In this document: piece after piece, positions 2,352 to 45,522 of the stretch
How the letters are laid out: the number at the start of each line of letters is the position of its first letter
How positions within the stretch are numbered: position 1 is the first letter of the stretch
Origin: Bacteroidota bacterium
Lineage (GTDB): Bacteria > Bacteroidota > Ignavibacteria > UBA10030 > SZUA-254
NCBI GenBank assembly: GCA_033854175.1
Contig: JAWOKN010000056.1
Coordinates: 3,736 to 67,735 of the forward strand
Reading direction: 5' to 3'
Length of the DNA stretch: 64,000 nucleotides
The notes under the pieces: model-generated
Databases searched by the model: none
The model's input: only the letters and a program-made list of their open reading frames with translations
Told to the model about the DNA's origin: nothing
Program-made: the position numbers and the translations under genes

Positions 2352-2660
2352 CTACGGGAGAACATGTCGTTTCTTAAGCGTTGCAAAGAAGGATTCAGAC
2401 ATTGCGTTATCGAGGCAGTTTCCCGTGCTGCTCATATTCTGTACGATGCCATTAGTGGTCAGGATTTCTTTGACCCGAGCATCAACATATTGTTTCCCGC
2501 GATCACGGTGAAAAACAATCCTGAAGCGGTCTCTCGTCAGTGCAATGCCATCTGCAGTGCTTCGACGACTGCCTCGGCATGCATGTGAATTGGAAGGAAT
2601 GTGCGAACTTGCGACCGATAGGGACAGGTCCCCCCGCCAAGCTGCCGGTTTCCCGGCAGA
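2352..2660 (-). pseudogene. IS3-family transposase OrfB remnant (frameshifted, truncated)
   Basis: The C-terminal ~50 aa of ORF 2352..2855 read FHRDRGKQYVDARVKEILTTNGIVQNMSSTGNCLDNAMSESFFATLKK, matching the IS3 OrfB DDE-region motif HSDRGSQY...GNCYDNAxAESFF.TLK.E. An adjacent frame upstream reads ...AEAVVEALQMAL, as expected just N-terminal of that motif. No intact OrfA/OrfB or inverted repeats were found. Confidence 0.55.
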
Positions 2661-3344
2661 ATAATCTTTGGACAGGCTCCGACCATCATTCTGAATCCAG
2701 ATGGTGGCGGCCTGCGCCTCCTGCATGAAACGAGCCCTATCCTGTTCCGACGCCGAGAGATGGGCCGGAAGGAACTTCAGTGCGACGAACCATCTGAGCT
2801 TGAACCCTCGCGGCCTTATAGACCACTCCCATGCCCCCTTCGTCCAGCTTCTCAAGAACTTTATACCGTGACAGAGTTCGTCCGATCATGAACATCTCTT
2901 GATGAAATATTGCGATATTCGGCTATTGCGAGAGGCAGGTCGTGAATGAATACCAAATCATCCGCTCTCCGTGATCCTCCCCGGAAACGATTCCCCTAAT
3001 CCACCGAGCGGTGACATAAGTCACCCGGGAATTCCATGATCTTCCGGCAGGACCCTGACGATGTCGGAGTATCCGACCCTTCGGCCCGCCCGAGATGGAT
3101 GACACTGTTGTGCTCCCCCCACAGCCGCGTCATTCTTCCGGCGACCGGAACAAGAAATCAGACAAATGAGTATAGATCGAGTCGTAGCCGTATGATCCAA
3201 CACCCCGGTTTGCCGGCATGAAGAAAACGGGAAGATCTCTGAAGAACGGTGCACGGGGTGCGGCTCTTCACCCAAACAGGTCTCACACTTGAGAGATGTA
3301 GATCCCGATCCCCCCGGAAACCAATCGCACGGGGCAACAGAATA

Positions 3345-3360
3345 TGGTGCGCAATTTGCT
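3345..3360 (+). promoter_or_regulatory. candidate sigma-54 promoter (TGGTGC-N5-TTGCT) upstream of the multiheme cytochrome
   Basis: The GG(-24) and TTGC(-12) core elements are correctly spaced about 94 nt upstream of ATG 3454. The -24 hexamer deviates from TGGCAC at two positions. Confidence 0.3.
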
Positions 3361-3453
3361 CGAACATATGCCGACAGAACCGCGTCCAGATCGGTCGCGG
3401 GTGCGGTCGAAATACCTCATAACATTGCGACCGGAGAGAGAAGGAGTGCGAGT

Positions 3454-5205
3454 ATGGACAAGAATACATATTTTCGCGGAGGCGCCTGTTTTTTTCTGTT
3501 ACCCATTGTTTTCATCCTTTCCCCAACCCACCTACGAGCCCAATCAGCGCTGCCATGCTACGCATGCCACAGCGGGGAGAACGACAACTGGCTGCTCGGC
3601 CGGCATGCAAACACCCAGAAGGACGTCGCAGGCGAGATCGCTGCTAACTGGCAGGGGCAGACGCCAGATTCCGTCATCCACGGCTCGGCTGCGGAGAACT
3701 GTGTAGCATGTCATTCCCCGCTTGCCGTCACGACAAACGGCGGGATGACCGAAACGCAGGTGATGGGACATTACTTCACCACGACCGGCGGTTTCTACAC
3801 TGATTCCACGCAGGCCGCGGATACGGCCAACTGGCCGCATGTCGGCTGCAACACCTGTCATGACGTTCCGTCGAACCATACGAGCCATGTGTTACCGACG
3901 CTTGCGATTTTCAATTCAACGACGGCACAATACGACTCGATGCCGACGACGGCCACGCTCTGCGGACAGTGTCACGGAACGCTGAGATTCGCGGAAACCG
4001 ACCATCGGATATTCGATGCGTGGAAACTCAGCCGGCACGGGCACAGGGGCCAATCGGACGTCGCGGGCGAGCTCGCCGGAAGCTGGGCGGGCAAAACACC
4101 CAATGACGTCATCAACGGGCCCGATGCGGAAAACTGCGTCGCCTGCCATGCTCCGACGGCGGTCGGTCAAAAATCCGGGGACACAACGGAGGTCATGGTC
4201 TTAAGCCGGTTCTTCACGACCTCGGGCGGGCAATTTACTGCAGGAACGGCCCCTTCCGACACGGCCCACTGGCCTGATGTCAGCTGCACCGCATGTCACG
4301 ACCCACATCGGCCGGACACACTTTCGTACTACAACACATCGACGAGGACGTACCAGGTCATGGCCTCATCAAACCAGTTATGCGGCCAATGCCACGGCAA
4401 CCTCAGGTTTGCCGGTACTGACCATTTAAGCTACAACGTGGAAGAAGCCATCGGTGGAGTCGGTGTGGCGGCCCAGGCGACCATGCCCGGCGCCGGGTGC
4501 ACGGATTGTCACATGCACAAGGGTGAAACGGACGGAACAAACTCACTCATGTACAAGGGGCACAGCTGGTCCATCTTCATCCACGAACCGGACAGCAGCA
4601 CAACCGCCTCCTGCACATCATGTCATGCGGGAATGAACGCCGATTCCTCCAAAACGGTCATCGCCGGCTGGAAGGCCGAATTTGCCTCGACGGACTCACT
4701 CGCCCAGTTACGGGTTGCCTCAGCAGACTCGGCGCTGCAGGGAATAACCGATTCCGTCAGGCAGGCATATCTTGCGGAAGCAAAGAGCAACCTGAGTCTT
4801 GCGGAATCGGACGAAAGCGGCGGATTCCACAACCACAAATACAGTATGGCGCTCCTGAACGACGCCATTGCGAAATCGGCACTCATCACCGGAGTAACGA
4901 TGCCGCAGGCGAATCTCCCGCTGCGGTTCGCGTTACATCAGAACTACCCGAATCCCTTCAATCCATCGACCATCATCCGGTATGAGATCCCCCTTGAAAG
5001 CAGAGTGGCCCTGAAGGTCTACAATGTTCTGGGACAGACCGTGGCAATACTGCGGGAGAACGTAGAATCAGCGGGGTACAAAATTGTAGAATGGACTGCG
5101 GCAGGCATGCCAAGCGGCATATACTTCTGTCAGCTCCAGGCAACGAGCACCTCGCATCCCGTCAAGGCCTACAGTCAGGTCATGAAGATGCTTCTTATTA
5201 GATAA
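3454..5205 (+). CDS. nonaheme c-type cytochrome with T9SS C-terminal sorting domain (secreted/cell-surface)
   Basis: ATG 3454 is preceded by AAGGAG. Signal peptide is MDKNTYFRGGACFFLLPIVFILSPTHLRAQS. Nine CXXCH motifs are present (CYACH, CVACH, CNTCH, CGQCH, CVACH, CTACH, CGQCH, CTDCH, CTSCH). The C-terminus NYPNPFNPSTIIRYEIPLESRVALKVYNVLGQ... is a T9SS type-A (Por) sorting domain. Confidence 0.85.
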   Translation: MDKNTYFRGGACFFLLPIVFILSPTHLRAQSALPCYACHSGENDNWLLGRHANTQKDVAGEIAANWQGQTPDSVIHGSAAENCVACHSPLAVTTNGGMTETQVMGHYFTTTGGFYTDSTQAADTANWPHVGCNTCHDVPSNHTSHVLPTLAIFNSTTAQYDSMPTTATLCGQCHGTLRFAETDHRIFDAWKLSRHGHRGQSDVAGELAGSWAGKTPNDVINGPDAENCVACHAPTAVGQKSGDTTEVMVLSRFFTTSGGQFTAGTAPSDTAHWPDVSCTACHDPHRPDTLSYYNTSTRTYQVMASSNQLCGQCHGNLRFAGTDHLSYNVEEAIGGVGVAAQATMPGAGCTDCHMHKGETDGTNSLMYKGHSWSIFIHEPDSSTTASCTSCHAGMNADSSKTVIAGWKAEFASTDSLAQLRVASADSALQGITDSVRQAYLAEAKSNLSLAESDESGGFHNHKYSMALLNDAIAKSALITGVTMPQANLPLRFALHQNYPNPFNPSTIIRYEIPLESRVALKVYNVLGQTVAILRENVESAGYKIVEWTAAGMPSGIYFCQLQATSTSHPVKAYSQVMKMLLIR

Positions 5206-5493: not shown

Positions 5494-7386
5494 TTACATC
5501 ACAAAATGAGACACAACGCCGCCGACAAAAAAGGCCACGACCCAGGTACCGATCCAGATCACCATCCCCTCCCTCCAGCCCCTCTCTTTGAGCATCACCA
5601 TCAGTGAAGCGATGCACGGGACAAAGAGGGTAATGACGATAAGCGAAACGGCAATCTGCATCGGGTTGAGGGACATATGGTACAGACCGGCCGCGCCGAA
5701 ATCTCGGCGGACGACGCCCATAATAAATGCGACAGCGGCCTCCGGGGGCAGCTGGAGCCAGTGGACGACCAGGGGGGTAAGTTCGTGCTCGAGAAGATCC
5801 AGCAAACCGGTAAGCTGTGCGATACCGACCGCGAGTGCGCCCACAAAAAACCAGCCCGAGGCCTCCTTCATGAAATAATATGTCCGGACGGCGGTTTTCC
5901 TGAAGACATTTTCCATACGGGGCAATCTCATCGGCGGGAGATCCAGAAGAAGCGGGGCTGACGAGCCCGGCAGGACCCGGTCGAGCATCGTTCCGATAAG
6001 GACCAGAACGGCAAGGATCACCAGGACATAGACAGCGATCGGGCCCGGGCCCGCACCCGCAAGGAGCGCGGCGATGACGGCCATCTGGGCGGAGCAGGGG
6101 ATGACAAACTGAAGAATTGCGGTGGCAATCGTCTTCTCGCGTTCAGAGCCGAGGAGGCGTGTAGTAATCGTTGCGGAGGTCACGCAGCCGAAGCCGAGAA
6201 TCAGCGGAATGACGGCCCTTCCGTTCAGGCCGAGGTAGGTCAGAATGCGGTCCACCATCGTCGCCAGCCGCGGAAGGTACCCGCTATCCTCCATCAGAGA
6301 AAGAACGATATAGAACGAAATCACGAGCGGAAGCAGAAGAAAAAGAAGATACGTTGTGGTCATGGTCACAACGCCGTAAGGACCGACAAGGAGTGTATAC
6401 CACCATGATGAGGGAGAAATCAGGGTGGCGGTGATCGTGCGGATCCACGGTTCCCAGAGATTGTTACCGATCCGCTGCTCGGTAAAATTCACAACCAGCT
6501 GGGAAACAAACTTTCCGATAAAGAGATAGGCGACATACAATGCGGCGACAAGGATAGGGATCCCCGTGGAGGGCTTCAGGGCCCAGCGGCCGAGCCTGTC
6601 GGAAAACCGTCTTTTCGGGGAAGTATCCTGCATGACCTGGTTCACGAGATAATTCACCCGGTTGCGGCGGCTGATATAAATCTCATCGCGGAGCGTGCCG
6701 GGATTGACGCCGTGGCGCCGGGCGACAAACTGGTCCCCCTCGAGGACCAGCAGGGCCTCGGATTGTGAGCCGACCATGGAAAGGGTCTCATGGAGGTGGC
6801 CGTGGAGTTCCTCGCGCTGGGTCCCCTCGCGGGCGCCCAGGATGGCCTGATCGAGTTTTTCCAGCGTGACGCCGTTCACGGCGGTAACGGGAATGACACT
6901 GACGCCCAAAAAATTCGAAAGCTTCGGAATGTCGATACTGATATGAAAATCCCTCACCTCGTCCATAAAATTCAGCAGCACCGTAATCTTCTTCCCCATA
7001 TCGATCAGCTGCTGGGTCAGAAACAGGTCCCGTTCGAGGTGTGTCGCATCGACAACATTCAGAACAATATCCGCGTCGAGGATGATATCGCGGGCGGCTT
7101 TCTCCTCATCATTAAACGACGAGACCCCATAGATGCCGGGTGTATCGAAGACATCATAATCGCGGTAGGAACCGCAGACAAGTTCGACGGTAGTCCCCGG
7201 ATAATTCGAGACATCGACATTCATACCGGAAAGGGTATTAAAAATGATCGATTTCCCGACATTGGGATTGCCGGCAAGGACAATTTCCACGCGTCCGGTC
7301 TGTTTGCGGGGGGATCTCAGGCCGGGATGCTGGTGTCTATCCGAATGTTCCAGCGGGGGGCGGGATAAAGGATCATCTGGTGTCAT
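5494..7386 (-). CDS. feoB: ferrous iron transporter FeoB
   Basis: N-terminal G-domain (VLAGNPNVGKSIIFNTLSG...NYPGTTVE) followed by a polytopic membrane domain. An alternative GTG start at 7290 would remove a 32-aa N-terminal extension. Confidence 0.9.
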   Translation of the reverse strand: MTPDDPLSRPPLEHSDRHQHPGLRSPRKQTGRVEIVLAGNPNVGKSIIFNTLSGMNVDVSNYPGTTVELVCGSYRDYDVFDTPGIYGVSSFNDEEKAARDIILDADIVLNVVDATHLERDLFLTQQLIDMGKKITVLLNFMDEVRDFHISIDIPKLSNFLGVSVIPVTAVNGVTLEKLDQAILGAREGTQREELHGHLHETLSMVGSQSEALLVLEGDQFVARRHGVNPGTLRDEIYISRRNRVNYLVNQVMQDTSPKRRFSDRLGRWALKPSTGIPILVAALYVAYLFIGKFVSQLVVNFTEQRIGNNLWEPWIRTITATLISPSSWWYTLLVGPYGVVTMTTTYLLFLLLPLVISFYIVLSLMEDSGYLPRLATMVDRILTYLGLNGRAVIPLILGFGCVTSATITTRLLGSEREKTIATAILQFVIPCSAQMAVIAALLAGAGPGPIAVYVLVILAVLVLIGTMLDRVLPGSSAPLLLDLPPMRLPRMENVFRKTAVRTYYFMKEASGWFFVGALAVGIAQLTGLLDLLEHELTPLVVHWLQLPPEAAVAFIMGVVRRDFGAAGLYHMSLNPMQIAVSLIVITLFVPCIASLMVMLKERGWREGMVIWIGTWVVAFFVGGVVSHFVM

Positions 7387-7609
7387 GGGGAACTTCGTCG
7401 ATGACCGTCACGAGAATACTCCGTGCAAGTGTGTGGCCGATAGCGATCTGCTGTCGGTTTTTCTGGAGAACGATGGTTCCGCCCGGGAGGCGTTCCAGGC
7501 ATTTGACGCGCTGCCCTTCATGGATCCCCAGCCGGACGAACTGGGGGTAATAATCGCCGCCGGGGACCGAATGAATCTTCAACAATTGACCGACCTTGGT
7601 TTCGCTCAT
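7373..7609 (-). CDS. feoA: ferrous iron transport protein FeoA
   Basis: FeoA SH3-like domain (VGQLLKIHSVPGG...RLGIHEGQRVKCLERLPGGTIVL...IAIGHTLARSILV). The ORF track starts at 7678 (GTG), which is upstream of the predicted sigma-54 transcription start. ATG 7609 (MSETKVGQ...) or 7645 is more plausible. Confidence 0.8.
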   Translation of the reverse strand: MSETKVGQLLKIHSVPGGDYYPQFVRLGIHEGQRVKCLERLPGGTIVLQKNRQQIAIGHTLARSILVTVIDEVPHDTR

Positions 7610-7686
7610 AGAGACGGGTTTCTTGCGGCTCTTCTTGTCAGTCATGATATCATATCGATTAAATTCAAACATACTCACCTATTATC

Positions 7687-7702
7687 GGCAATTATTGTGC
7701 CA
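7687..7702 (-). promoter_or_regulatory. sigma-54 promoter (TGGCAC-AATAA-TTGCC) driving feoAB
   Basis: Minus-strand sequence CCGATTTGTGGCACAATAATTGCCGATAAT matches the -24/-12 consensus perfectly. It sits between the PLP-enzyme stop (7811) and feoA. Confidence 0.6.
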
Positions 7703-28767: not shown

Positions 28768-29090
28768 TCCCGGGAGAACAGGCATCAACATCCGGTGGCC
28801 GGCATGCCGGTGGGTGGTGCTTCTTACAAATGAGATTAAAAAATTCCCCTCTTTTCAGGCGTGATAGCTTCCCCGTGTAAATCAAAAAAAAGCGGGACAA
28901 TTTCCATGAATCAGACGACTGAAGGGTGGAATAGTTCTTGCAGATATCGTGGAATTGCGACACTGGCATCCGAGTGGGAACTTCAAAGAAGAAGCACCAT
29001 TCCCGCTCATCGTGGTTACGGATTGAAAACGAACAGATCCGCAGAAGCATAACAGACAGGCACCAAGATACAACAGTGAAGGAACATCGT

Positions 29091-29526: not shown

Positions 29527-32202
29527 ATGATGATCGGCACGCTCATATCCCATTACAAAATACTTGAAAAACTCGGCGAGGGAGGAATGGGTGTGGTATA
29601 CAAGGCGCACGACACAAAGCTCGAGCGCGTGGTTGCGCTGAAATTCCCCCCTCAGGCGCTCACGGCCGACCCGGAGGAGAGGGAGCGGTTTTACCAGGAG
29701 GCCCGATCGGCATCGCAGCTTCTCCACCCGAACGTCTGCACGATCTTTGAGATCAACGAATCGGAGAAGCAAATCTATATTGCCATGGAGTATGTCGACG
29801 GCCCGACCCTCAAGAAACGGATTCAGGCAGACAATCCGATGCCCCTGGGAAAATCCCTTGACATCGCCATCCAGATCTGCAACGGGCTTGTTGCCGCCCA
29901 TGAAAAGGGGATCGTGCACCGGGACATCAAATCCGAGAACATACTGCTGACGGCCAGGGGGGAGGTAAAAATCACCGATTTCGGACTCGCCAAGCTCAAA
30001 GGTGCGGAGAAGCTCACGAAAACAGGAAGTACATTGGGCACTGCCGCCTACATGTCCCCCGAGCAGGCGCGTGGTGAGGATGTCGATGCGAGAAGCGACA
30101 TATTCTCCTGCGGGGTGGTACTGTATGAACTCTTCGCCGGCAGGCTTCCTTTCCGCGGAGAACACCAGGCTGCGATACTCTACTCACTGGTGAACGAAGA
30201 GCCCGCGCCCCTGGCGAGGTTCAATGAGCACGTGTCGCCGGACCTGCAGCATATTGTTTCAAAGGCGCTCGCCAAAGACAGGGAGGACCGTTATCAGCAT
30301 GCCGACGAAATGCTTGCCGACTTGAGGCGGGAACGCAAACGCATGGAGTACGCGCGAACCGGTGTAATCATACAGCCAAAAGTGGTTTCCTCCACGCAAG
30401 AAGTCCAAGCGCAGGAAGCCTCAGACCGTTCGGGAGGCACCAAGCGAGTGATATGGGGCGTCGCCGGTGCTGTCATTCTTCTTGTCGCAGCCGGTATTTA
30501 TCTCACGGTCTGGAAACCCGGACCCAATCAGAGCGCGACAAATTCCGCAATCAGCAAGATTGCGGTACTCCCATTCGAGAACATCGGACCATCCGACAAG
30601 GAATATTTTGCGGACGGTCTCACCGACGAGATACGGACAAAGCTCAGTGGGCTTTCGAATCTGGCCGTCATTGCCCGTGCAAGTTCGATGCAGTACAAAA
30701 AGACCACGAAATCCATCTCGGAAATCGGCACCGAACTCAGTGTCGGTTACCTGTTGCAGGGGACCATACGATGGGAGGAAGGAGGATCGTCCCAGAGTGC
30801 TGTTCACCTTTTGGTAAATCCTTCCCTGGTGAAAATCACCGACGGGACGCAGGTCTGGTCGCAGTCATTCGAAGGGACCCTGTCGAGCGTCTTTCAGATG
30901 CAATCCGACATCGCGCAGCAGGTCGCACGCGCGCTCGAGGTGGCATTGAATCCCAGCGACCAGCAAGTCATCACCTCGAGGCCGACCAACAACGCCGAAG
31001 CGTACGATTACTTTTTACAGGGGCAGCAAAAATTGTATTTGCCGACCTCGGCGGACATGAAAGAGGCGCTTCCGATGTTTGAGAAAGCGATCAAACTTGA
31101 TCCAAAATTTGTCGCCGCCTATGCGGATTTATCCCGTGCGTACGCTTTCGCGACATTTCAGGGAATGAGCCCTGACAGCCTCCTTGTGTTATCGAAGAAA
31201 TCGCTTGACAAGGTCAAAGAACTGGAACCAAATTCGTTTCTGGCAAACTGGTCGGAAGGCTACTACTATTATTACGGGTTCAGAGATTACGACCAGGCAT
31301 TACGGCACTTCACCACGGCACTGAATCTCCAGCCCAACAATGTGGACATCATATCCGCGATCGGGTATGTCAAGCGGAGGCAGGGAAAATTCCAGGAAAG
31401 CCGCGATCTCCTCGCCAGGAGCTGTGATCTTGACCCGCAGGCGTGGCGCAACTGGTTCGAGCTCGGCTATGTAGAGCTCGTCATGCGTCAATATCCTCTG
31501 GCGGACGAACACATGAAGCGGGCGCTCCTGGTTTTCGGCAAGGGAAATGTCGCGGTAGCGGCATATCATTCGCAGGCCATCTTCTCCATGAACGGCGACG
31601 TCAGGGGGGCGCAGGAACTCTTCGACCGGGAGGCCGGCGAAAACAGATCGTGGTTATACAAGATGAGGAGTGCTCAACTCCATCTTGCGGGCGGGAATGT
31701 CGGCGCCGCCATAAATGATCTTTCCCGTGCGGTGCTCTCGGAGCCGGACGTGGATTCCACGGTCTACTACATGTTCTCAGGGCTCCTGCATGAACAATCC
31801 GGGCCCCGTAGTGCAGGGCGTGCTTATTTCGATAGTGCAAGAATTCTCGCAGAAAGAACAGTACACAACGCCCCCAATCAGGCCGTGGCTCACATGAATC
31901 TGGGAATCATCCTGGCTCATCTCGGACAAAAAGCCCGTGCAATTGAGGAGGGGGAAAAGGGGGTACGACTGATGCCGCTGGAAAAGGACGCGCTTGATGA
32001 AGGGCCGAACGCACTCTATGAGTTAGCTCAGATTTACGCTCTCACGGGAGAATCTGACGCTGCAATCGACAAGCTTGAACAGATATTGAGCATTCCAAAC
32101 ATGTACTCGGTCTATTTTGTGCAATCCGATCAGGAGCTTGCATCACTTGCGACGCTGCCCCGGTTTCAGAAATTGCTGGAAAAGTACAAAACTGCGCGGT
32201 AA
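29527..32202 (+). CDS. Ser/Thr protein kinase with TM helix, TolB-N-like periplasmic domain and TPR repeats
   Basis: Kinase subdomains are present (GEGGMGVVYKA, HRDIKSENILL, DFGLAK). TM helix is VIWGVAGAVILLVAAGIYLTVW. The periplasmic region has AVLPFENIGPSDKEYFADGLTDEI followed by TPR-like repeats. Confidence 0.85.
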   Translation: MMIGTLISHYKILEKLGEGGMGVVYKAHDTKLERVVALKFPPQALTADPEERERFYQEARSASQLLHPNVCTIFEINESEKQIYIAMEYVDGPTLKKRIQADNPMPLGKSLDIAIQICNGLVAAHEKGIVHRDIKSENILLTARGEVKITDFGLAKLKGAEKLTKTGSTLGTAAYMSPEQARGEDVDARSDIFSCGVVLYELFAGRLPFRGEHQAAILYSLVNEEPAPLARFNEHVSPDLQHIVSKALAKDREDRYQHADEMLADLRRERKRMEYARTGVIIQPKVVSSTQEVQAQEASDRSGGTKRVIWGVAGAVILLVAAGIYLTVWKPGPNQSATNSAISKIAVLPFENIGPSDKEYFADGLTDEIRTKLSGLSNLAVIARASSMQYKKTTKSISEIGTELSVGYLLQGTIRWEEGGSSQSAVHLLVNPSLVKITDGTQVWSQSFEGTLSSVFQMQSDIAQQVARALEVALNPSDQQVITSRPTNNAEAYDYFLQGQQKLYLPTSADMKEALPMFEKAIKLDPKFVAAYADLSRAYAFATFQGMSPDSLLVLSKKSLDKVKELEPNSFLANWSEGYYYYYGFRDYDQALRHFTTALNLQPNNVDIISAIGYVKRRQGKFQESRDLLARSCDLDPQAWRNWFELGYVELVMRQYPLADEHMKRALLVFGKGNVAVAAYHSQAIFSMNGDVRGAQELFDREAGENRSWLYKMRSAQLHLAGGNVGAAINDLSRAVLSEPDVDSTVYYMFSGLLHEQSGPRSAGRAYFDSARILAERTVHNAPNQAVAHMNLGIILAHLGQKARAIEEGEKGVRLMPLEKDALDEGPNALYELAQIYALTGESDAAIDKLEQILSIPNMYSVYFVQSDQELASLATLPRFQKLLEKYKTAR

Positions 32203-32575: not shown

Positions 32576-32625
32576 TAAGTGATGGGTGAATAAATAAGCA
32601 CGCAAGGACAGAAGGAGCAGTGAAA

Positions 32626-33303
32626 ATGACAGTCATATTCGTAATAGCGACGATTATATTCTTCCTCACGCTTGATTGGGTTGTGAGGCGGATAAGGGCA
32701 AGAAAAGCAGCACCGGTAACTGCGGTACACCCGTCGGCATATCCGATACGTGTACCGGAGGGGATATTCTTCACCAGATCGCACACCTGGCTCAATCTTT
32801 TCCCCTCGGGGAAAGTACGGCTCGGAATCGATGATTTTGTGGGCCGCATGGTAGAAAACCCGCAGATCATTTTCCTCAAGAAAAGCGGCGAGAGTATCTC
32901 CCGTGGAGAGCCCCTGTTGACGATGAAGGAAGACGAGCATCTGCTGACCGTCAGATCGCCGATCGACGGGGAGATCGAATCGATCAACGAGGAACTCCCG
33001 CGGCATCCCGACCTTTTGAAGGACCTCCTTTTCAGTGACGGCTGGGCATACACGATCAAGCCGAGAAAGTTCTCTGAAATCAAGGGCTTACTTCTCGGGA
33101 CAGAGACGAGGGAATGGATGCGGGCGGAATTCGGCCGTCTGCGTGATTTCTTTGCGGGGATCTCTCACAACGGCACAATAGCCCCGGCCCTCCTGCAGGA
33201 CGGCGGGCCGCCGATGGCGGGCGTCATGAAAACGATGGACGACGCGGTGTGGCAGAATTTCGAGCATGAGTTCCTCACGATCGAAGAATCTGAAAGGGCA
33301 TAG
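32626..33303 (+). CDS. membrane-anchored glycine-cleavage-H-fold (lipoyl/biotinyl-type barrel) protein
   Basis: ATG 32626 has GAAGGAG 8 nt upstream. N-terminal TM helix is MTVIFVIATIIFFLTLDWVV, followed by RRIRARK. It continues ...FTRSHTWLN...GKVRLGIDDFVGRMVENPQIIFLKKSGESISRGEPLLTMKEDEHLLTVRSPIDGEIESINEEL...DGWAYTIKP, which parallels GcvH (HEW...vGitd.aq..lGdiv.v.lp.vG...ESvKaas..ysPvsGev.evNe...GWl.k.k). Confidence 0.5.
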   Translation: MTVIFVIATIIFFLTLDWVVRRIRARKAAPVTAVHPSAYPIRVPEGIFFTRSHTWLNLFPSGKVRLGIDDFVGRMVENPQIIFLKKSGESISRGEPLLTMKEDEHLLTVRSPIDGEIESINEELPRHPDLLKDLLFSDGWAYTIKPRKFSEIKGLLLGTETREWMRAEFGRLRDFFAGISHNGTIAPALLQDGGPPMAGVMKTMDDAVWQNFEHEFLTIEESERA

Positions 33304-33305
33304 CG

Positions 33306-34124
33306 ATGGCGAGTGCGAAGGCGATGTTAATCGACCTCACGATGTGCATCGGGTGCAATTCGTGTCAGGATGCCTGCAAGAAGGCAAACGGTTTACCCGA
33401 AGGGGAGGAACAGCAGTTATCGGCAACCGCCTATACGGCGCTCAATGAATACAACGGCGTCTATGTCCGGAGGATGTGTCAGCACTGCATCCAGCCGACC
33501 TGTGCATCGGTCTGTCCCGTTGGTGCGTTGAAAAAGACGCCCGAGGGGCCTGTCCTCTACGACGAATCGAAGTGTATCGGCTGCCGGTACTGCATGCAGG
33601 CATGTCCGTTCCAGGTGCCTAGGTACGAGTGGAGCAGCACCTATCCGAGAATCCAGAAATGCCGCTTCTGTGCGGAGAGGCTTGCGAAGGGGATGCCCAC
33701 GGCATGTTCGGAGGCATGTCCGACGGGTGCGACAAAATTCGGCGACCGGGACGAACTGGTGCGCGAGGCCTACCAGCGGATATCCGCGGAACCGGGGAAA
33801 TACATCGACAAGGTCTACGGCCTCCAGGAAGTCGGAGGGACGTCAATACTGTACCTCTCCTCGGTTCCGTTCGAGCAGCTGGGATTCAAGACCCAGCTGG
33901 AGTCCAACGCGCTGCCGCTCCTCACGTGGAACGTGCTGTCGAAGATTCCGAACGTGGTCAGTGTCGGCGGAGTGGCGCTCTTCGGCATCTGGTGGATCAC
34001 CAACCGCCGGATGGAACTCGAGAAAGAGCGAAAAAACGGCCGGGCAAACGGTACGGCGCCGGGGGATGACCATCATTCCCGGAAAGAACAAACCCAACAA
34101 ACCGAGAATGGAGAGAGAGTATGA
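33306..34124 (+). CDS. HybA/DsrO/NrfC-like 4x[4Fe-4S] ferredoxin-type subunit with C-terminal TM anchor, no Tat/Sec signal
   Basis: Four Cys clusters (CIGCNSCQDAC, CQHCIQPTCASVCP, CIGCRYCMQACP, CRFCAERLAKGMPTACSEACP). C-terminal helix is VVSVGGVALFGIWWITNRR. The N-terminus MASAKAMLIDLTMCIGC has no twin-arginine motif. Confidence 0.8.
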   Translation: MASAKAMLIDLTMCIGCNSCQDACKKANGLPEGEEQQLSATAYTALNEYNGVYVRRMCQHCIQPTCASVCPVGALKKTPEGPVLYDESKCIGCRYCMQACPFQVPRYEWSSTYPRIQKCRFCAERLAKGMPTACSEACPTGATKFGDRDELVREAYQRISAEPGKYIDKVYGLQEVGGTSILYLSSVPFEQLGFKTQLESNALPLLTWNVLSKIPNVVSVGGVALFGIWWITNRRMELEKERKNGRANGTAPGDDHHSRKEQTQQTENGERV

Positions 34125-35323
34125 AACGCAGACTTCAGCAACTGACACTCTGGAAGGTCGTCGCCGGGCTGATCATCCTCAGCGGCCTCATATCAACCTA
34201 CGTCCGTTTCGCAAAAGGGCTGGGGGCGGCGACGCACCTGAGCGATCAATTCCCGTGGGGATTATGGATCGGGTTTGACATCCTGTGCGGCGTGGGGCTT
34301 GCGGCCGGGGGGTTCACGCTGGCTGCGATCGTCTACATCTTCAACATCAGGCGGTTTGAAGCGATCATCCGGCCGACCATCTTGACGGCATTCCTCGGCT
34401 ATCTCCTTGTGATTGCCGCGCTGATGTTCGATCTCGGGCGGCCGCTGCAGATATGGCATGCGATCATCATGTGGAACCATCACTCGGTCATGTTCGAGGT
34501 CGCGTGGTGCGTCATGCTCTACACGACAGTTCTCGCCCTTGAATTTTCGCCGATGCTCTTTGAAAAATTCAGGATGAACAACACGCTGAAGACATTCCAC
34601 AAAATCAGCATACCGCTCATTATCCTCGGGGTGATCCTCTCGACGCTGCACCAGTCGTCGCTCGGCTCGCTCTACCTCATCGTGCCCGAGAAGCTCTACG
34701 GCCTCTGGTATTCCGCCTATCTGCCGGTATTCTTCTACGTCTCGGCGATCGCGGTCGGCTGTGCGATGGTCATCTTCGAATCCATCCTGAGTTCCCGGGC
34801 GTTCCGGAAGAGCCTGGAAACGAACCTCCTTGCGGAGCTGGCCCGCATCAGCGTCGTGGCGCTCGCCGTTTACGCCACGATGAAGATCGTCGACTTGAAG
34901 GACCGCGACGTCATCAGCCTCCTCTTCCTCCCCCGCGCCGAGACCTATTTTTACTGGGCTGAGATCACCGTCGGGGTCATCGCACCGATCATACTTTTCT
35001 CCATCAGAAAAGCCCGTGAGAGTCAGACGGGGTTATTCGCCGGGGCCACGATGATCATCACCGGGTTCATCATGAACCGTCTCAACATCAGTCTGACGGG
35101 GATGGAAGGCTGGGCCGGTCTTTCCTACTTCCCGTCATGGATGGAAATTTCCGTCACCCTCACCATCGTCACGGTGGGGTTCATTGCATTCCGGCTTGCG
35201 GCCAAATATCTGCCGGTGTTCAAGCCCGAACTGAACGTTCCCGAAAAGGAATTCGCACACCCGATCGTCGAGGATCTCCACAGCGTCTCATCGTCGCGGG
35301 AACGCTCGATGATACTGGAATAA
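34121..35323 (+). CDS. NrfD/PsrC/HybB-family polytopic membrane protein (quinone-interacting subunit)
   Basis: About 10 predicted TM helices. It overlaps the HybA-like gene by 4 nt and has the family-typical architecture. Confidence 0.8.
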   Translation: MKRRLQQLTLWKVVAGLIILSGLISTYVRFAKGLGAATHLSDQFPWGLWIGFDILCGVGLAAGGFTLAAIVYIFNIRRFEAIIRPTILTAFLGYLLVIAALMFDLGRPLQIWHAIIMWNHHSVMFEVAWCVMLYTTVLALEFSPMLFEKFRMNNTLKTFHKISIPLIILGVILSTLHQSSLGSLYLIVPEKLYGLWYSAYLPVFFYVSAIAVGCAMVIFESILSSRAFRKSLETNLLAELARISVVALAVYATMKIVDLKDRDVISLLFLPRAETYFYWAEITVGVIAPIILFSIRKARESQTGLFAGATMIITGFIMNRLNISLTGMEGWAGLSYFPSWMEISVTLTIVTVGFIAFRLAAKYLPVFKPELNVPEKEFAHPIVEDLHSVSSSRERSMILE

Positions 35324-36332: not shown

Positions 36333-37982
36333 ATGAAGGCATTCCGTTCGCTCAGTGTGAGGGTATTTGCGGGGTCATTTCTCCTCCTTGTGACCCTCCT
36401 GGGGCTCTATTCCTATTTTGCGATAAAGTTTCACACCGAACAGATGATGGAGATCGTCCTGGGAAACGCAAGCCGCATCAGCGACATCATCAAGAACTCG
36501 ACCCACTACAGCATGCTCCTCAACAGGAAGGAGGACGTCTACCAGACGATCCTCACCATCGGCAAGGAAAAGGGGGTTGAAGGGATACGGATTTACAACA
36601 AGCGGGGAGAAATCATGGCCTCCTCCCGCACCGAAGAAAAACTGCAGATTGTCGACATGCATGCTGAAGCCTGTTACGTCTGCCATGAGAAGGGAAAACC
36701 CCTGGAATCGCTCGCATCGGACAACAGGATGCGGATCTACACCTCCCCGAAGGGGTACAGGGTACTGGGTTTGATCAACCCCATCCACAACGAGCCAAGC
36801 TGTTCGAATGCCGATTGCCATGCTCATCCGCCTGATAAAACCATACTCGGTGTACTCGACGTTCGGATGTCGCTGGAAAACGTCGACACGGCAATCGCCG
36901 AAGCGCACGCCAAGATGATCAGCTGGGCGGTCGGGGGAGTTCTCCTTGCATCGCTCCTCATCTCGGTCCTCCTCTACAGAACCGTGCATCGGCCCGTCAA
37001 GCGGCTCACGCTGGGGACGCATGAAGTCTCCTCCGGCAACCTCGATCTCCGGATACCCATACACTCGAAGGACGAACTGGGGCAGCTTGCCGAATCGTTC
37101 AATTCGATGACGACCTCATTGCGCAACCTCATTGAAGAGAAAAACACCTGGTCGCGCGAGCTGGAGGAGCGGGTCCGTGAAAAAACCGCCGAGTTGAAGC
37201 ACATTCACGAGCAGATCCTGCAGATTGAAAAGATGACATCGCTCGGGAAGCTCGCGGCGACCGTTGCGCACGAACTGAACAACCCCCTGGAAGGGATCCT
37301 GACCTACGCGAAGCTCCTGGCGAAGCAGCTCAGGAAAGCCGAATTCTCTGCGGACCGGTCAAAGGAATTTCTCGAGGAACTCAATCTCATCATCCAGGAA
37401 ACGGACCGGTGCGGAACGATCGTGAAGAACCTCCTCCTCTTTTCCCGGAAGCAGGTCGGCGAATTCGCGCTTGCGCCTGCGCGGCAGATCGTGGAGAAGG
37501 CCCAGCGTCTCGTGGATCACCACTTCCACATCTCCAACGTGAAATTCGAGGCCACGTACGCGCCTGAGGACGTGTCGCTCATGTGCGACGAAATGCAGAT
37601 CCAGCAGGCCTTGATTGCGCTCTTTGTCAACGCGGTTGAAGCCATGCCGGGGGGCGGCACACTGCGCGTCGATGTCTCGCAGCGTTCGAAGGATGACAAC
37701 ATCATCCTCCGCATTTCGGACACCGGTACGGGGATAGCGGAGGAGGATCTCCACAACATCTTCGAACCATTTTTCACAACAAAAAAGGAGGGTCAGGGTG
37801 TCGGCCTCGGCCTCTCGGTTGTCTACGGCATCGTCGTCCGTCACGGCGGCACGATCAGTGTGGAGTCGAGTCTCAACAAGGGAACGGCATTCACGCTGAC
37901 CTTCCCGGCGCTTGAGCGGAGCACCAAGGGAATCCCGGAGCCGGAGGCGAAAAAATCACCCATTGATCCACACTATGCATAA
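36333..37982 (+). CDS. sensor histidine kinase with periplasmic CXXCH (putative c-type heme) sensor domain
   Basis: TM1, then a ~165-aa periplasmic region containing CYVCH and CSNADCH, then TM2 (ISWAVGGVLLASLLISVLLY), a HAMP domain, HisKA (LAATVAHELNNPL) and HATPase_c (DTGTGI...GQGVGLGL). Confidence 0.85.
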   Translation: MKAFRSLSVRVFAGSFLLLVTLLGLYSYFAIKFHTEQMMEIVLGNASRISDIIKNSTHYSMLLNRKEDVYQTILTIGKEKGVEGIRIYNKRGEIMASSRTEEKLQIVDMHAEACYVCHEKGKPLESLASDNRMRIYTSPKGYRVLGLINPIHNEPSCSNADCHAHPPDKTILGVLDVRMSLENVDTAIAEAHAKMISWAVGGVLLASLLISVLLYRTVHRPVKRLTLGTHEVSSGNLDLRIPIHSKDELGQLAESFNSMTTSLRNLIEEKNTWSRELEERVREKTAELKHIHEQILQIEKMTSLGKLAATVAHELNNPLEGILTYAKLLAKQLRKAEFSADRSKEFLEELNLIIQETDRCGTIVKNLLLFSRKQVGEFALAPARQIVEKAQRLVDHHFHISNVKFEATYAPEDVSLMCDEMQIQQALIALFVNAVEAMPGGGTLRVDVSQRSKDDNIILRISDTGTGIAEEDLHNIFEPFFTTKKEGQGVGLGLSVVYGIVVRHGGTISVESSLNKGTAFTLTFPALERSTKGIPEPEAKKSPIDPHYA

Positions 37983-37997
37983 CCTCACAGAAAACGT

Positions 37998-39962: not shown

Positions 39963-40097
39963 GATAAAAACGCATCCGTTTTTTGAGGTTTCAGAGTTGA
40001 TTCGGCACATTTTGGCTTATGCCTCAATGGAATGATTCTTGCATTTTACTTTGCGGTTTACTTCAATCTTTTACTTTCTCGAAAGGACATTTGAGCC

Positions 40098-45230: not shown

Positions 45231-45256
45231 AATATCGGATAAATCTATCCGATATT
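45231..45256. promoter_or_regulatory. 26-bp perfect palindrome AATATCGGATA-AATC-TATCCGATATT (copy B), abutting a sigma-54 -24 element
   Basis: 11-bp perfect arms. It lies 2 nt after the Rrf2 stop codon and is homologous to the feoAB-promoter copy at 7703..7728. Confidence 0.55.
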
Positions 45257-45271
45257 GGCACAGATGTTGCA
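45256..45271 (+). promoter_or_regulatory. sigma-54 promoter (TGGCAC-AGATG-TTGCA), perfect consensus
   Basis: Exact -24/-12 elements, upstream of the NapH-like/methyltransferase/OsmC gene string. Confidence 0.65.
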
Positions 45272-45522
45272 CTACTAGAGCTGAAGAAATACAAAGGCCG
45301 GTTCTTCCCTCTGTATTAGAGACCTTTTTGATCATCAGAAGAATCCCTTTTTTAAGAATGAGAAATCAGCAGTTTACGGCTATAAGAAGTGACACCGTGC
45401 CCCCTCCTTCCGCTGCATTTGCCGTTGCACCGCAAAATGGACTATCCCCGTATAAAGCCGAAGGCGCCAGGTCCGGGCGTCTGAGTATAAAAAAGCTCTC
45501 ACCCGCGCTCCGCAAACCGAAA

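What the first reader, a model, noticed from the sequence alone, without database searches (positions are those of the whole stretch)
3345..5205. T9SS-sorted nonaheme cytochrome with internally duplicated tri-heme module, a candidate extracellular electron-transfer protein
Nine CXXCH motifs follow a Sec signal, and the C-terminus is a Por/T9SS sorting domain, predicting a cell-surface or secreted multiheme cytochrome. Residues ~113-240 and ~246-376 are a clear tandem duplication (GE[IL]A..W.G.TP..VI.G..AENCVACH.P.AV...G.T.....FTT.GG.[FY]T.......A.WP.V.C..CHD......L.........CGQCHG.LRFA.TDH), i.e. a repeated 3-heme unit. A sigma-54-like element (TGGTGC-N5-TTGCT) lies about 94 nt upstream.
Basis: partly seen in the sequence, partly recalled or inferred. 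Interest (0 to 1): 0.65.

Follow-up and report, generated by a model that had tools for sequence, protein, structure and literature searches.

The report
Secreted nine-heme cytochrome of FCB bacteria
This gene encodes a nine-heme electron-carrying protein with an export tag for the type IX secretion system. It belongs to a large, unstudied family distantly related to OcwA, a known cell-surface iron-reducing cytochrome, so it is a good candidate for passing respiratory electrons to minerals outside the cell.

Summary
The gene (window 3454-5205, +) encodes a 583-aa protein with a Sec-type signal peptide and nine CXXCH motifs. It has a tandem duplicated three-heme module (52% aa identity, E 9e-45) and a C-terminal T9SS type-A sorting domain that passes TIGR04183 and PF18962.

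The closest solved relative, by profile and by fold, is OcwA, the nonaheme cell-surface terminal reductase of Thermincola potens. Hemes 5-9 map one to one. The invariant His324 aligns with OcwA's distal-pocket His, and by repeat symmetry so does His184.

The protein is not NrfA, although relatives are often annotated so. It is not MtrC either.

The family is large and almost entirely from MAGs (Calditrichota, Ignavibacteria, Bacteroidota, Chlorobiota). Forms without the sorting domain occur in other phyla. Some relatives carry three or four modules (12 or 15 hemes).

In about 12 related loci the gene lies next to other multiheme cytochromes. In five to seven of these the neighbours form a porin-cytochrome-like cluster. 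In this window the gene stands alone.

The sigma-54 element is no more than chance gives and is not conserved. T9SS core genes could not be tested.

Best reading: a T9SS-exported, OcwA-like extracellular electron-transfer cytochrome. It is a new variant of a known kind, supported by homology and by context in relatives.

The parts
3345..3360 (+). Sigma-54-like -24/-12 match (TGGTGC-N5-TTGCT). Probably chance, and not counted as a functional part.
   Evidence: It is present. The window has 10 such matches against 8.3 expected. It occurs in 4 of 77 orthologue upstream regions. Scores do not differ from an intragenic control.
3441..3446 (+). Shine-Dalgarno-like AAGGAG, 7 nt before the ATG.
   Evidence: Read directly from the sequence.
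3454..5205 (+). Coding sequence of the 583-aa nonaheme c-type cytochrome, stop codon included.
   Evidence: An identical protein, P0001, is in the public collection, and more than 120 homologues have E < 1e-185.
3454..3540 (+). Sec (SPase I type) signal peptide, aa 1-29. Predicted cleavage is LRA|QS. There is no lipobox.
   Evidence: Sequence inspection, plus conservation of the 'AQS' site in alignment A1.
3541..3621 (+). N-terminal heme-1 segment (CYACH at aa 35, invariant His51). It is c554-like.
   Evidence: PF13435 matches aa 35-100 at 32 bits against a cut-off of 20.8. It aligns to OcwA residues 19-48.
3622..4005 (+). Three-heme module R1 (aa 57-184): hemes 2-4, invariant His142, and the T-D-His184 motif.
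4057..4425 (+). Three-heme module R2 (aa 202-324): hemes 5-7, His285, and the T-D-His324 motif. It is preceded by a linker carrying invariant His195.
   Evidence: Hemes 5-7 and D323-H324 align to OcwA-type hemes 5-7 and its His-His motif.
4426..4893 (+). NrfA/OcwA-type C-terminal part (aa 325-480). It holds hemes 8 and 9 and invariant His370, His459, Met344 and Met354. Three long helices follow (aa 396-479), carrying the ESDESGGFHNH motif.
   Evidence: The AF2 model shows helices 396-427, 434-451 and 461-479. The profile matches OcwA, NrfA and ONR over this region.
4945..5202 (+). T9SS type-A C-terminal sorting domain (aa 498-583), a beta-sandwich with the NYPNPFNP motif.
   Evidence: TIGR04183 33.7 bits against 23; PF18962 29.2 against 27. 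AF2 predicts beta strands over 493-581 at pLDDT about 90. It matches the solved sorting domain 8glj_D.

Best explanation
The gene encodes a nonaheme c-type cytochrome of the OcwA / NrfA / cytochrome c554 superfamily. It is made for the cell exterior of a diderm FCB-group bacterium.

Proposed route, all inferred:
1. The Sec system exports the apoprotein.
2. Hemes are attached covalently in the periplasm.
3. The folded holoprotein is recognised through its type-A C-terminal domain by the type IX secretion system and carried across the outer membrane.
4. The sorting domain is removed. The protein is then either anchored on the surface or released.

Outside the cell, its roughly linear nine-heme chain exchanges electrons with extracellular acceptors or donors such as Fe(III)/Mn(IV) minerals, humics, shuttles, electrodes or partner cells. 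Electrons would arrive from a trans-outer-membrane porin-cytochrome conduit encoded elsewhere in the genome.

The chain is built as heme 1, two homologous three-heme modules, then a two-heme NrfA-type end with a three-helix bundle. The first heme of each module (hemes 2 and 5) corresponds to the two open-site hemes of OcwA and may be where substrates or shuttles dock.

Shown here: the domain architecture, the duplication, the HMM memberships, the homology to OcwA, the spread of the family, and clustering with porin-cytochrome genes in some relatives.

Inferred: actual export, surface location, the direction of electron flow, the substrate, and the heme ligation states.
For: Architecture:
- Nine CXXCH motifs and a signal peptide.
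- The T9SS sorting domain is above both curated cut-offs.
- Three C-terminal helices are followed by a beta-sandwich in the AF2 model.

Homology:
- The profile of 30 homologues hits OcwA (6i5b) best in the whole PDB (E 2.3e-16), ahead of NrfA (2e-6) and ONR (5e-5).
- Foldseek also ranks OcwA first.
- hhalign to an OcwA-like sequence gives 97.9% probability. Hemes 5-9 map one to one, and D323-H324 falls on OcwA's His-His pocket motif.
- OcwA is a surface-exposed nonaheme terminal reductase with iron-oxide reductase activity (PMC6703420 and PMC9250108).

Family:
- 102 of the top 120 homologues share nine hemes, two modules and a T9SS tail.
- Forms without the sorting domain occur in non-FCB phyla. 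The tail therefore behaves as a lineage-specific export label on a conserved core.

Context in relatives:
- In L047, L055 and L059 (and partly L046, L051, L060) the gene lies in a same-strand cluster. The cluster holds a beta-barrel-like protein of 396-419 aa, a 12-heme cytochrome, a 9/10-heme cytochrome (a lipoprotein in L059) and 6-heme lipoprotein cytochromes.
- In L005 it lies among ResB/CcsA, NrfC/NrfD-like, cytochrome-b-fused and NapC/NirT-type multiheme cytochromes.

This window:
- It has a second T9SS cargo.
- It has an NrfCD-like pair that is 36-42% identical to the pair next to the L005 orthologue.
Against: - No experiment exists for any member of this family.
- In this window the gene is solitary. 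There is no other multiheme cytochrome, porin-cytochrome conduit or T9SS core gene in 64 kb.
- Most related loci (about 70 of 84) have no cytochrome neighbour and no conserved context.
- Similarity to OcwA is remote: about 18% identity and TM 0.31-0.36 on a heme-free AF2 model with pLDDT 75.
- There are enough conserved non-motif His and Met residues (His 51, 142, 184, 195, 285, 324, 370, 459, 461; Met 344, 354) for all nine hemes to be six-coordinate. Open sites are therefore not required by the sequence.
- How electrons would reach a T9SS-displayed protein across the outer membrane is unknown.
Confidence: 0.6

Rival explanations
1. It is a surface or secreted catalytic reductase or detoxifying enzyme for small soluble molecules such as nitrite, hydroxylamine, NO, sulfite, tetrathionate or peroxide. 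It would use open-site hemes 2 and 5, with the invariant T-D-His motifs as distal pockets. On this view it is not a mineral or electrode reductase.
For: - The C-terminal half is NrfA/ONR-like.
- His324 sits at the position of OcwA's distal-pocket His381. It lies between the motifs that correspond to NrfA hemes 3 and 4, where, from my own knowledge, the NrfA catalytic His lies.
- T-D-H is invariant in both modules.
- OcwA itself reduces nitrite and hydroxylamine slowly (PMC6703420).
Against: - OcwA's nitrite turnover is about 1 per minute, far below true NrfA.
- There is no CXXCK, and NrfA equivalog models score far below cut-off.
- Exporting an enzyme for freely diffusing anions across the outer membrane has no obvious benefit.
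- Module number varies (2, 3 or 4), which fits a wire better than a tuned active site.
- Some orthologues lie in porin-cytochrome-like clusters.
Confidence: 0.2
2. It works in the opposite direction. It is a surface cytochrome that takes up electrons from Fe(II), reduced minerals, cathodes or syntrophic partners and passes them into the cell.
For: - Multiheme chains are reversible in principle (general knowledge).
- Many carriers come from hydrothermal and sediment MAGs, where Fe(II) and sulfide are abundant (record titles).
- A feoAB ferrous-iron uptake operon lies convergent next to the gene in this window.
Against: - The feoAB adjacency is not seen in the related loci.
- The only characterised relatives, OcwA and OmhA, are reductases of Fe(III).
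- The window encodes a fermentative or anaerobic heterotroph repertoire: PFOR, phosphotransacetylase, acetate kinase, amino-acid dehydrogenases. No autotrophy genes were seen among the ORFs scanned.
Confidence: 0.1
3. It is what many database records call its relatives: the periplasmic ammonia-forming cytochrome c nitrite reductase NrfA (c552).
For: - NCBI and JGI names on several homologues say so.
- Pfam PF02335 scores 49.8 bits against a cut-off of 24.1, through local stretches.
Against: - It has nine hemes, not five, and no CXXCK.
- NF008339 scores 12.4 bits against a cut-off of 595. The NrfB models are also far below cut-off.
- phmmer finds no NrfA in the PDB.
- There are no nrfH or nrfBCD genes next to it.
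- A T9SS export tail is incompatible with a periplasmic enzyme.
Confidence: 0.03
4. It is a member of the MtrC/OmcA/MtrF family of outer-membrane decaheme cytochromes.
For: PF22113 (MtrC/MtrF domains II/IV) is the top Pfam hit: 52.6 bits against a cut-off of 30, in five stretches.
Against: - It has nine hemes and no lipoprotein signal.
- The model shows no split-barrel domains I/III.
- No MtrC, MtrF or OmcA structure appears among the PDB profile or listed fold hits.
- The DmsE/MtrA decaheme model scores 24 against 192.
- There is no mtrAB neighbour.
- The Pfam hit is probably driven by the spacing of CXXCH motifs.
Confidence: 0.02

Closest known systems
OcwA (TherJR_2595; PDB 6I5B), the nonaheme cell-surface terminal reductase of Thermincola potens, and its 11-heme relative OmhA of Carboxydothermus ferrireducens
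   Same: - Both have nine CXXCH hemes.
- Both have a c554-like N-terminus and an NrfA-like C-terminus ending in a three-helix bundle.
- The order of elements is the same: heme 1, hemes 2-4, a His pocket, hemes 5-7, a His pocket, hemes 8-9.
- OcwA is the best PDB hit by profile and by fold, and hemes 5-9 align one to one.
- Both carry an extracellular address.
- OcwA's hemes 2 and 5 have 'almost identical' environments. Here that symmetry is explained by an evident tandem duplication.
   Different: - Identity is only about 18%, and phmmer finds nothing.
- Here the two three-heme modules are 52% identical to each other.
- The pocket motif is Thr-Asp-His rather than His-His.
- There is an insertion of about 23 residues between hemes 5 and 6.
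- The host is a diderm, and the protein carries a T9SS sorting domain instead of sitting on a Gram-positive wall.
- Function is untested.
NrfA / ONR (penta- and octaheme cytochrome c nitrite reductases)
   Same: - The C-terminal heme pair, the conserved distal His residues (His370, His459) and the long helices align.
- There is a Pfam PF02335 domain-level hit.
   Different: - There is no CXXCK.
- It has nine hemes.
- Equivalog HMMs are far below cut-off.
- It is exported, and it has no Nrf partner genes.
MtrC/OmcA of Shewanella and OmcB-type porin-cytochrome complexes of Geobacter
   Same: The proposed role is the same: a multiheme cytochrome on the outer face of a diderm cell that hands electrons to minerals. 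Some orthologues sit in porin-cytochrome-like gene clusters (definition in PMC4245776, abstract seen).
   Different: - The fold family is unrelated.
- It is not a lipoprotein.
- Export is predicted to go through T9SS rather than the type II system used by Shewanella (the latter is from my own knowledge).
GSU1996-type 'nanowire' dodecaheme cytochromes, built of repeated c7-type triheme domains (TIGR04257)
   Same: The concept is the same: a heme wire lengthened by tandem repetition of a three-heme unit. Relatives here have two, three or four units.
   Different: The unit is not a c7 domain: TIGR04257 scores 15.2 bits against a cut-off of 40. The modules are about 125 aa and belong to the NrfA/c554 lineage.
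Canonical T9SS type-A cargo (for example gingipains and Flavobacterium glycoside hydrolases)
   Same: It has a signal peptide plus a TIGR04183/PF18962 C-terminal domain.
   Different: The passenger is a cofactor-loaded multiheme cytochrome. No paper in the searched library combined T9SS with multiheme cytochromes.

Membership tests
T9SS type-A cargo protein | C-terminal sorting domain matching TIGR04183 / PF18962 above the curated cut-off | tested here: met
   TIGR04183 33.7 bits against 23; PF18962 29.2 against 27; aa 498-567. AF2 gives a beta-sandwich at high confidence.
T9SS type-A cargo protein | N-terminal Sec signal peptide | tested here: met
   By inspection only: a charged n-region, a 14-residue hydrophobic core, and an LRA|QS site conserved as 'AQS' in A1. 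No dedicated predictor was available.
T9SS type-A cargo protein | The genome encodes the T9SS core (PorK/L/M/N, SprA/Sov, PorU, PorV) | not testable with these tools
   None was found among the window's ORFs. The rest of the genome is not available. Indirect support comes from a second protein with a sorting domain at 56382-58490 (PF18962 33 bits).
OcwA/OmhA-type cell-surface multiheme cytochromes (NrfA/c554 superfamily) | Significant sequence and fold similarity to OcwA | tested here: met
   hmmsearch E 2.3e-16 to 6i5b_A, the top of the PDB. hhalign gives 97.9% to an OcwA-like sequence. Foldseek ranks it first at E 2.6e-6, but TM is only 0.31-0.36.
OcwA/OmhA-type cell-surface multiheme cytochromes (NrfA/c554 superfamily) | Nine CXXCH hemes with a C-terminal three-helix bundle | tested here: met
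OcwA/OmhA-type cell-surface multiheme cytochromes (NrfA/c554 superfamily) | Two five-coordinate hemes (2 and 5), each with a His-His distal motif | tested here: inconclusive
   The second His of the motif is conserved (His324, and by repeat symmetry His184). The first is Asp. The ligation state cannot be read from sequence, and enough conserved His and Met exist for nine six-coordinate hemes.
OcwA/OmhA-type cell-surface multiheme cytochromes (NrfA/c554 superfamily) | Iron-oxide or electrode reductase activity at the cell surface | not testable with these tools
   Needs experiments.
NrfA (ammonia-forming cytochrome c nitrite reductase) | Pentaheme with a CXXCK (or clade-specific CXXCH) catalytic heme, scoring above the NCBIfam equivalog cut-off | tested here: not met
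   Nine CXXCH and no CXXCK. NF008339 scores 12.4 against 595. phmmer finds no NrfA in the PDB.
NrfA (ammonia-forming cytochrome c nitrite reductase) | Adjacent nrfH or nrfBCD partner genes | tested here: not met
   The neighbours are an IS remnant and a convergent feoAB operon.
MtrC/OmcA/MtrF outer-membrane decahemes | Ten hemes in two pentaheme domains alternating with beta-barrel domains, a lipoprotein signal, and mtrAB neighbours | tested here: not met
   Nine hemes, no lipobox, no such domains in the model, and no mtrAB. PF22113 passes at 52.6 bits, but this is a local, motif-driven match.
c7-type triheme 'nanowire' repeat (TIGR04257) | Module matches the triheme domain HMM | tested here: not met
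   15.2 bits against a cut-off of 40.
Sigma-54-dependent promoter | GG-N10-GC element close to consensus, more frequent than chance, and conserved upstream of orthologues | tested here: not met
   The element matches 9 of 12 consensus positions with correct spacing. Against that, the window has 10 matches and 8.3 are expected, only 4 of 77 orthologue upstream regions carry it, and the score distribution equals the intragenic control. No enhancer-binding protein gene lies nearby; the nearest is at 37998-39344.

The most novel reading that the evidence does not exclude
The type IX secretion system may be the route by which FCB-group bacteria (Calditrichota, Ignavibacteria, Bacteroidota, Chlorobiota and allies) put respiratory multiheme cytochromes on their surface. 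This OcwA-like family would be their widespread terminal extracellular reductase, so far hidden under 'NrfA' or 'hypothetical' labels.

In addition, its three-heme module, which may carry one open-site heme, is a unit that evolution copies to lengthen the wire from 9 to 12 to 15 hemes. The clear homology of the two modules suggests that the OcwA-type nonaheme layout arose by internal tandem duplication, not by fusion of separate c554-like and NrfA-like ancestors.
Probability: 0.4. Interest if true: 0.75.

Novelty: new variant of a known kind. Interest (0 to 1): 0.55.

Why it matters
If the reading is right, four things follow.

1. It gives a concrete, testable molecular basis for extracellular electron transfer in FCB-group bacteria. 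These organisms are abundant in sediments, hydrothermal deposits, aquifers and anode biofilms. They are known to include iron reducers, but their terminal reductase has not been identified.

2. It links the type IX secretion system, known mainly for proteases, glycoside hydrolases and gliding adhesins, to respiration. It would also show that T9SS can carry a protein loaded with nine covalently bound hemes.

3. It flags a systematic mis-annotation. Many family members are labelled as NrfA nitrite reductase, which can inflate estimates of nitrate ammonification from metagenomes.

4. The variation in module number (9, 12 or 15 hemes) is a clean natural example of how multiheme wires grow. It also explains the near-identical environments of OcwA's two open hemes.

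Tried and rejected
1. Single-sequence phmmer against the PDB found nothing. A profile was needed.

2. Looking up the identical protein P0001 for its contig and organism failed. The source organism is therefore unnamed. The best genome match is a Bacteroidota MAG at 62% identity.

3. I tried to retrieve full-length OcwA from the protein collection with a 206-aa fragment copied from the PDB alignment. This returned only one 278-aa relative, P0121. That was enough for hhalign but not for a full nine-heme map. The correspondence of hemes 1-4 therefore rests on two short local alignments and on repeat symmetry.

5. Sigma-54 promoter:
   - The pattern count in the window, conservation in 77 orthologue upstream regions and an intragenic control were all negative.
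   - A search upstream of the small gene that precedes the orthologue in six loci found one decent element, in L068 only.

6. A conserved-neighbourhood search across 84 loci found no universal partner. It found only subsets: a divergent OmpR-type two-component pair in about 12 loci and multiheme-cytochrome or porin-like clusters in about 12.

7. The upstream 389-aa ORF (261-1430) was considered as a possible outer-membrane conduit. It has no Pfam hit and no cytochrome partner, so it was not included.

8. The FeoAB adjacency was considered as a functional link (reduce Fe(III), then import Fe(II)). It is not seen in the relatives examined and the genes are convergent, so it is treated as coincidence.

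9. Literature searches combining T9SS (or type IX secretion, or sorting domain) with multiheme or c-type cytochromes found no paper making that link. The library lacks most subscription journals, so absence there is not proof of novelty.
Full report
**1. What is in the sequence**

The long ORF listed at 3289-5205 (+) begins with an in-frame TTG. The extension it adds has no counterpart in any homologue. The real start is the ATG at 3454, preceded by AAGGAG at 3441-3446. The finding's start coordinate, 3345, is the first base of the sigma-54-like element and is out of frame.

The 583-aa product starts with a typical Sec signal: MDKNTYFRGG, a hydrophobic core, then LRA|QS. The 'AQS' site is conserved in the family, and there is no lipobox.

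It has nine CXXCH motifs, at aa 35, 83, 132, 170, 228, 278, 310, 349 and 387, and no CXXCK or longer variant.

The C-terminal 86 residues match the T9SS type-A sorting domain above both curated thresholds: TIGR04183 33.7 against 23, and PF18962 29.2 against 27.

**2. The duplication**

The refined units are aa 57-184 (nt 3622-4005) and aa 202-324 (nt 4057-4425). They share 52% protein and 61% DNA identity.

Each unit carries three CXXCH motifs. Each also carries a conserved His after the second motif (His142 / His285) and ends in CGQCHG-x-LRF-x2-T-D-His (His184 / His324). Each is preceded by a W-x4-R/S-His...Q-x-DVAxELA lead-in containing His51 / His195.

Orthologous modules in other species are more alike (54-85%) than the two modules within one protein (41-54%). 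The duplication is therefore older than the T9SS-tailed clade.

Relatives exist with three modules and 12 hemes (P0112, P0116, P0065, P0103). Others have four modules and 15 hemes (P0002, P0004, P0122). A further group has three modules plus an N-terminal extension, also 15 hemes (P0077, P0085). In these proteins the extra modules are 72-100% identical to one another, which indicates recent amplification. None of the longer forms carries the T9SS tail, and several have a lipoprotein signal.

**3. What family it belongs to**

Pfam gives only generic multiheme hits: MtrC/MtrF II-IV, c552, c7, c554. A single-sequence search of the PDB finds nothing.

A profile of 30 homologues (A1) finds OcwA of Thermincola potens (6I5B) as the best solved relative, at E 2.3e-16. 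NrfA (about 2e-6) and octaheme nitrite reductase (5e-5) follow, and they match only through the C-terminal part.

The AlphaFold2 model has pLDDT 74.9. It shows three long helices at aa 396-479, then a beta-sandwich. Foldseek also ranks OcwA first, then ONR and NrfA. TM-scores are low (0.31-0.36), as expected for a multiheme protein modelled without its hemes.

hhalign of A1 against an OcwA-like sequence gives 97.9% probability. It aligns hemes 5, 6, 7, 8 and 9 one to one.

OcwA is a nonaheme cytochrome exposed on the cell surface and proposed as the terminal reductase of extracellular electron transfer. It has iron-oxide reductase activity and a C-terminal three-helix bundle. It has six bis-His hemes, one His-Met heme and two five-coordinate hemes (2 and 5). 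Those two sit in 'almost identical' pockets, each topped by a His-His motif (PMC6703420; PMC9250108).

In both alignments our Asp323-His324 falls on OcwA's second His-His motif. I inferred the offset of 29 between chain index and published numbering, because this is the only His-His in that stretch. By repeat symmetry, Asp183-His184 would be the counterpart at heme 2.

The order of elements is the same in both proteins: heme 1; hemes 2-4; pocket His; hemes 5-7; pocket His; hemes 8-9; helices. So this protein has the OcwA layout, and here the symmetry of OcwA's two special hemes is visibly the product of a tandem duplication.

Whether hemes 2 and 5 are open here cannot be decided from sequence. 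The conserved residues His 51, 142, 184, 195, 285, 324, 370, 459 and 461 and Met 344 and 354 would be enough to give every heme a sixth ligand.

**4. What it is not**

- NrfA. NCBI and JGI label several homologues 'ammonia-forming cytochrome c nitrite reductase subunit c552'. The protein has nine hemes, not five, and no CXXCK. It scores 12.4 bits against a 595-bit cut-off on the NrfA equivalog model. It has no Nrf partner genes, and it carries an export tail.
- MtrC/OmcA. It has nine hemes, no lipobox, no beta-barrel domains and no mtrAB neighbour. No MtrC-type structure appears among the PDB hits.
- A c7-type repeat protein. The three-heme module scores 15.2 against 40 on TIGR04257.

**5. Distribution**

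The word-indexed search returned 3208 proteins at E ≤ 1e-3. More than 120 of them have E < 1e-185. Of the top 120, 102 have exactly nine hemes, two modules and a T9SS motif.

At 50% clustering the full-length family collapses to a handful of representatives. The exhaustive search also shows many other T9SS-tailed multiheme cytochromes that share only the NrfA-type C-terminal part and the sorting domain, for example P0159, P0165, P0251, P0170, P0181 and P0220. T9SS-tagged cytochromes of this superfamily are therefore a broad phenomenon.

A scan of one genome per species found 124 relatives, nearly all in MAGs. They are labelled Calditrichota, Ignavibacteria/Melioribacteraceae, Bacteroidota, Chlorobiota, Kryptoniota, Marinimicrobia, Zixibacteria and others. 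Nine-heme forms without the sorting domain (475-550 aa) occur in records labelled Chloroflexota, Spirochaetota, Nitrospirota, Phycisphaerae and Hydrogenedentota. The tail thus behaves as a lineage-specific address label on a conserved core.

The window's own organism is not among the species representatives. The best match is 62% identical, in a Bacteroidota MAG.

**6. Genomic context**

In this window the gene stands alone. Upstream lie a decayed IS3-type integrase and a protein-kinase fragment. Downstream lies a convergent feoAB operon.

No other ORF in the 64 kb has more than one CXXCH. No T9SS core component was found among the ORFs scanned.

The window does contain:
- a second T9SS-tailed protein, at 56382-58490;
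- an NrfC/NrfD-like pair, at 33306-35323;
- cytochrome bd oxidase;
- a sigma-54-dependent two-component pair, at 36333-39344.

Across 84 related loci there is no universal neighbour. Two subsets stand out.

- About 12 loci have a divergently transcribed OmpR-type response regulator (222 aa) and histidine kinase (about 477 aa) immediately upstream.
- About 12 loci have adjacent multiheme cytochromes.

Within the second subset, in L047, L055 and L059 (and partly L046, L051, L060) the gene is embedded, on the same strand, in a cluster with four other components:
- a signal-peptide protein of 396-419 aa that ends in an aromatic residue, with one weak beta-barrel-porin hit;
- a 12-heme cytochrome of about 300 aa;
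- a 9- or 10-heme cytochrome (a lipoprotein in L059);
- a 6-heme lipoprotein.

This composition resembles the porin-cytochrome complexes of Geobacter (defined in PMC4245776), which were also reported in Ignavibacteria type strains (PMC7399161).

In L005 the orthologue lies between ResB/CcsA heme-attachment genes and an NrfC/NrfD-like pair. Cytochrome-b-fused and NapC/NirT-type multiheme cytochromes follow. The window's NrfCD-like pair is 36-42% identical to that pair.

**7. The sigma-54 element**

TGGTGCGCAATTTGC is present at 3345-3359 with the right GG-N10-GC spacing. It matches 9 of 12 consensus positions. Three tests speak against it:
- The pattern occurs 10 times in the window against 8.3 expected.
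- Only 4 of 77 orthologue upstream regions have it, against a background of 2.4% per 300 nt.
- The distribution of best scores upstream equals that of an intragenic control.

A few relatives (L050, L068) do have a PAS-sigma-54 activator gene just upstream. Only L068 shows a good -24/-12 element. I treat the window's element as unproven and probably chance.

Better matches to the consensus lie elsewhere in the window. One is directly upstream of feoA (7702-7688, minus strand). Another is 58 nt upstream of the gene at 45328.

**8. Most likely mechanism**

The proposed steps are Sec export, periplasmic heme attachment, and folding. T9SS then recognises the type-A C-terminal domain and carries the holoprotein across the outer membrane. 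The sorting domain is removed, and the protein is anchored on the surface or released. All of these steps are inferred from what is generally known about T9SS type-A cargo.

Outside the cell, the nine-heme chain would accept electrons from an outer-membrane conduit and pass them to insoluble or polymeric acceptors. Hemes 2 and 5 are possible docking sites.

The support is:
- the export label (shown);
- homology to the only structurally and biochemically characterised protein of this layout, which is a surface Fe(III) reductase (shown);
- variable module number, which suits a wire (shown);
- membership of porin-cytochrome-like clusters in several relatives (shown for the relatives, not for this window).

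The weaknesses are:
- the solitary position of the gene here;
- the lack of any experiment on the family;
- the remoteness of the homology;
- the unknown hand-over of electrons across the outer membrane.

I put the probabilities at about 0.8 for an exported or surface location and about 0.6 for the full statement. The main rival, at about 0.2, is a surface enzyme acting on small soluble substrates through open hemes. Reverse electron flow (uptake) is a variant at about 0.1.

**9. Novelty**

The building blocks are known: the OcwA/NrfA-superfamily cytochrome, the T9SS sorting domain, and module duplication in multiheme cytochromes.

The combination was not found in the searchable literature. 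No paper held 'T9SS' or 'type IX secretion' together with multiheme cytochromes. The recent surveys of this superfamily that I read do not mention secretion tails or FCB members. The library omits most subscription journals, so this is not proof of novelty.

I rate the finding as a new variant of a known kind, of moderate to good interest. It is a clear, testable lead rather than a surprise that overturns anything.

Noticed in passing
window 5494-7702 (- strand): A feoA (7373-7678) and feoB (5494-7386) ferrous-iron uptake operon lies convergent to the cytochrome gene. A near-consensus sigma-54 element (TGGCACAATAATTGC, 7702-7688) sits about 10 nt upstream of the feoA ORF start.
   Followed up: partly
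window 2352-2895 (- strand): Gene debris lies just upstream of the cytochrome gene: the C-terminal remnant of an IS3-type (rve) transposase, and the first ~50 residues of a Ser/Thr protein kinase. The kinase piece resembles the start of the intact kinase at 29527-32202. This suggests an old insertion event.
   Followed up: partly
window 56382-58490 (- strand): A second T9SS type-A cargo. It is a 702-aa BNR/sortilin-type beta-propeller protein with a Por_Secre_tail domain (33 bits against a cut-off of 27). This is indirect evidence that the organism uses a T9SS.
   Followed up: partly
window 32620-35323 (+ strand): An NrfC-like 4Fe-4S protein and an NrfD-like membrane protein, with no molybdopterin subunit. 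They follow a 227-aa protein with a glycine-cleavage-H-like domain. The pair is 36-42% identical to the NrfCD-like pair directly downstream of the cytochrome orthologue in L005. It could be the quinol-oxidising entry point of the same pathway.
   Followed up: partly
window 45256-45270 (+), 28927-28941 (+) and 40028-40042 (+): TGGCACAGATGTTGC lies 58 nt upstream of a Fer4_5 iron-sulfur protein gene (45328), which follows an Rrf2 regulator gene. Separately, two near-identical TGGAAT-N5-CTTGC elements each sit just before a gene start (28938, a HypC-like gene; 40098, PFOR).
   Followed up: no
L047 7002-13882; L055 4943-11695; L059 4916-10955: A recurrent same-strand cluster surrounds the orthologue in some related genomes. 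It holds a beta-barrel-like protein of 396-419 aa, a 12-heme cytochrome, a 9/10-heme cytochrome and a 6-heme lipoprotein cytochrome. In some loci a small TPR-like gene of about 145 aa is also present. The set resembles a porin-cytochrome conduit.
   Followed up: partly
L002, L033, L040-L044, L048, L049, L061, L065, L069 (genes -1 and -2 relative to the orthologue): In about 12 Ignavibacteria/Bacteroidota-type loci, an OmpR-type response regulator (222 aa) and a HAMP histidine kinase (about 477 aa) are transcribed divergently from the orthologue. They are probably its dedicated regulator in that clade. The pair is absent from this window.
   Followed up: partly
proteins P0159, P0165, P0251, P0170, P0181, P0220, P0162: Other families of T9SS-tailed multiheme cytochromes share only the NrfA/OcwA-type C-terminal helices (DGSHGIHN-type motif) and the sorting domain. 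Their N-terminal heme domains differ, and some carry large non-heme N-terminal extensions.
   Followed up: no
proteins P0002 and P0122: Some 15-heme relatives contain module copies that are 99-100% identical to each other. This is either very recent tandem amplification or an assembly artefact of repeats.
   Followed up: no
proteins P0103, P0124, P0126 (C-termini): Relatives without the T9SS domain, from other phyla, end instead in a different conserved domain of about 60 aa (...W..G.LQ.A......W.DV......QFYRLR). This may be another sorting or anchoring signal.
   Followed up: no
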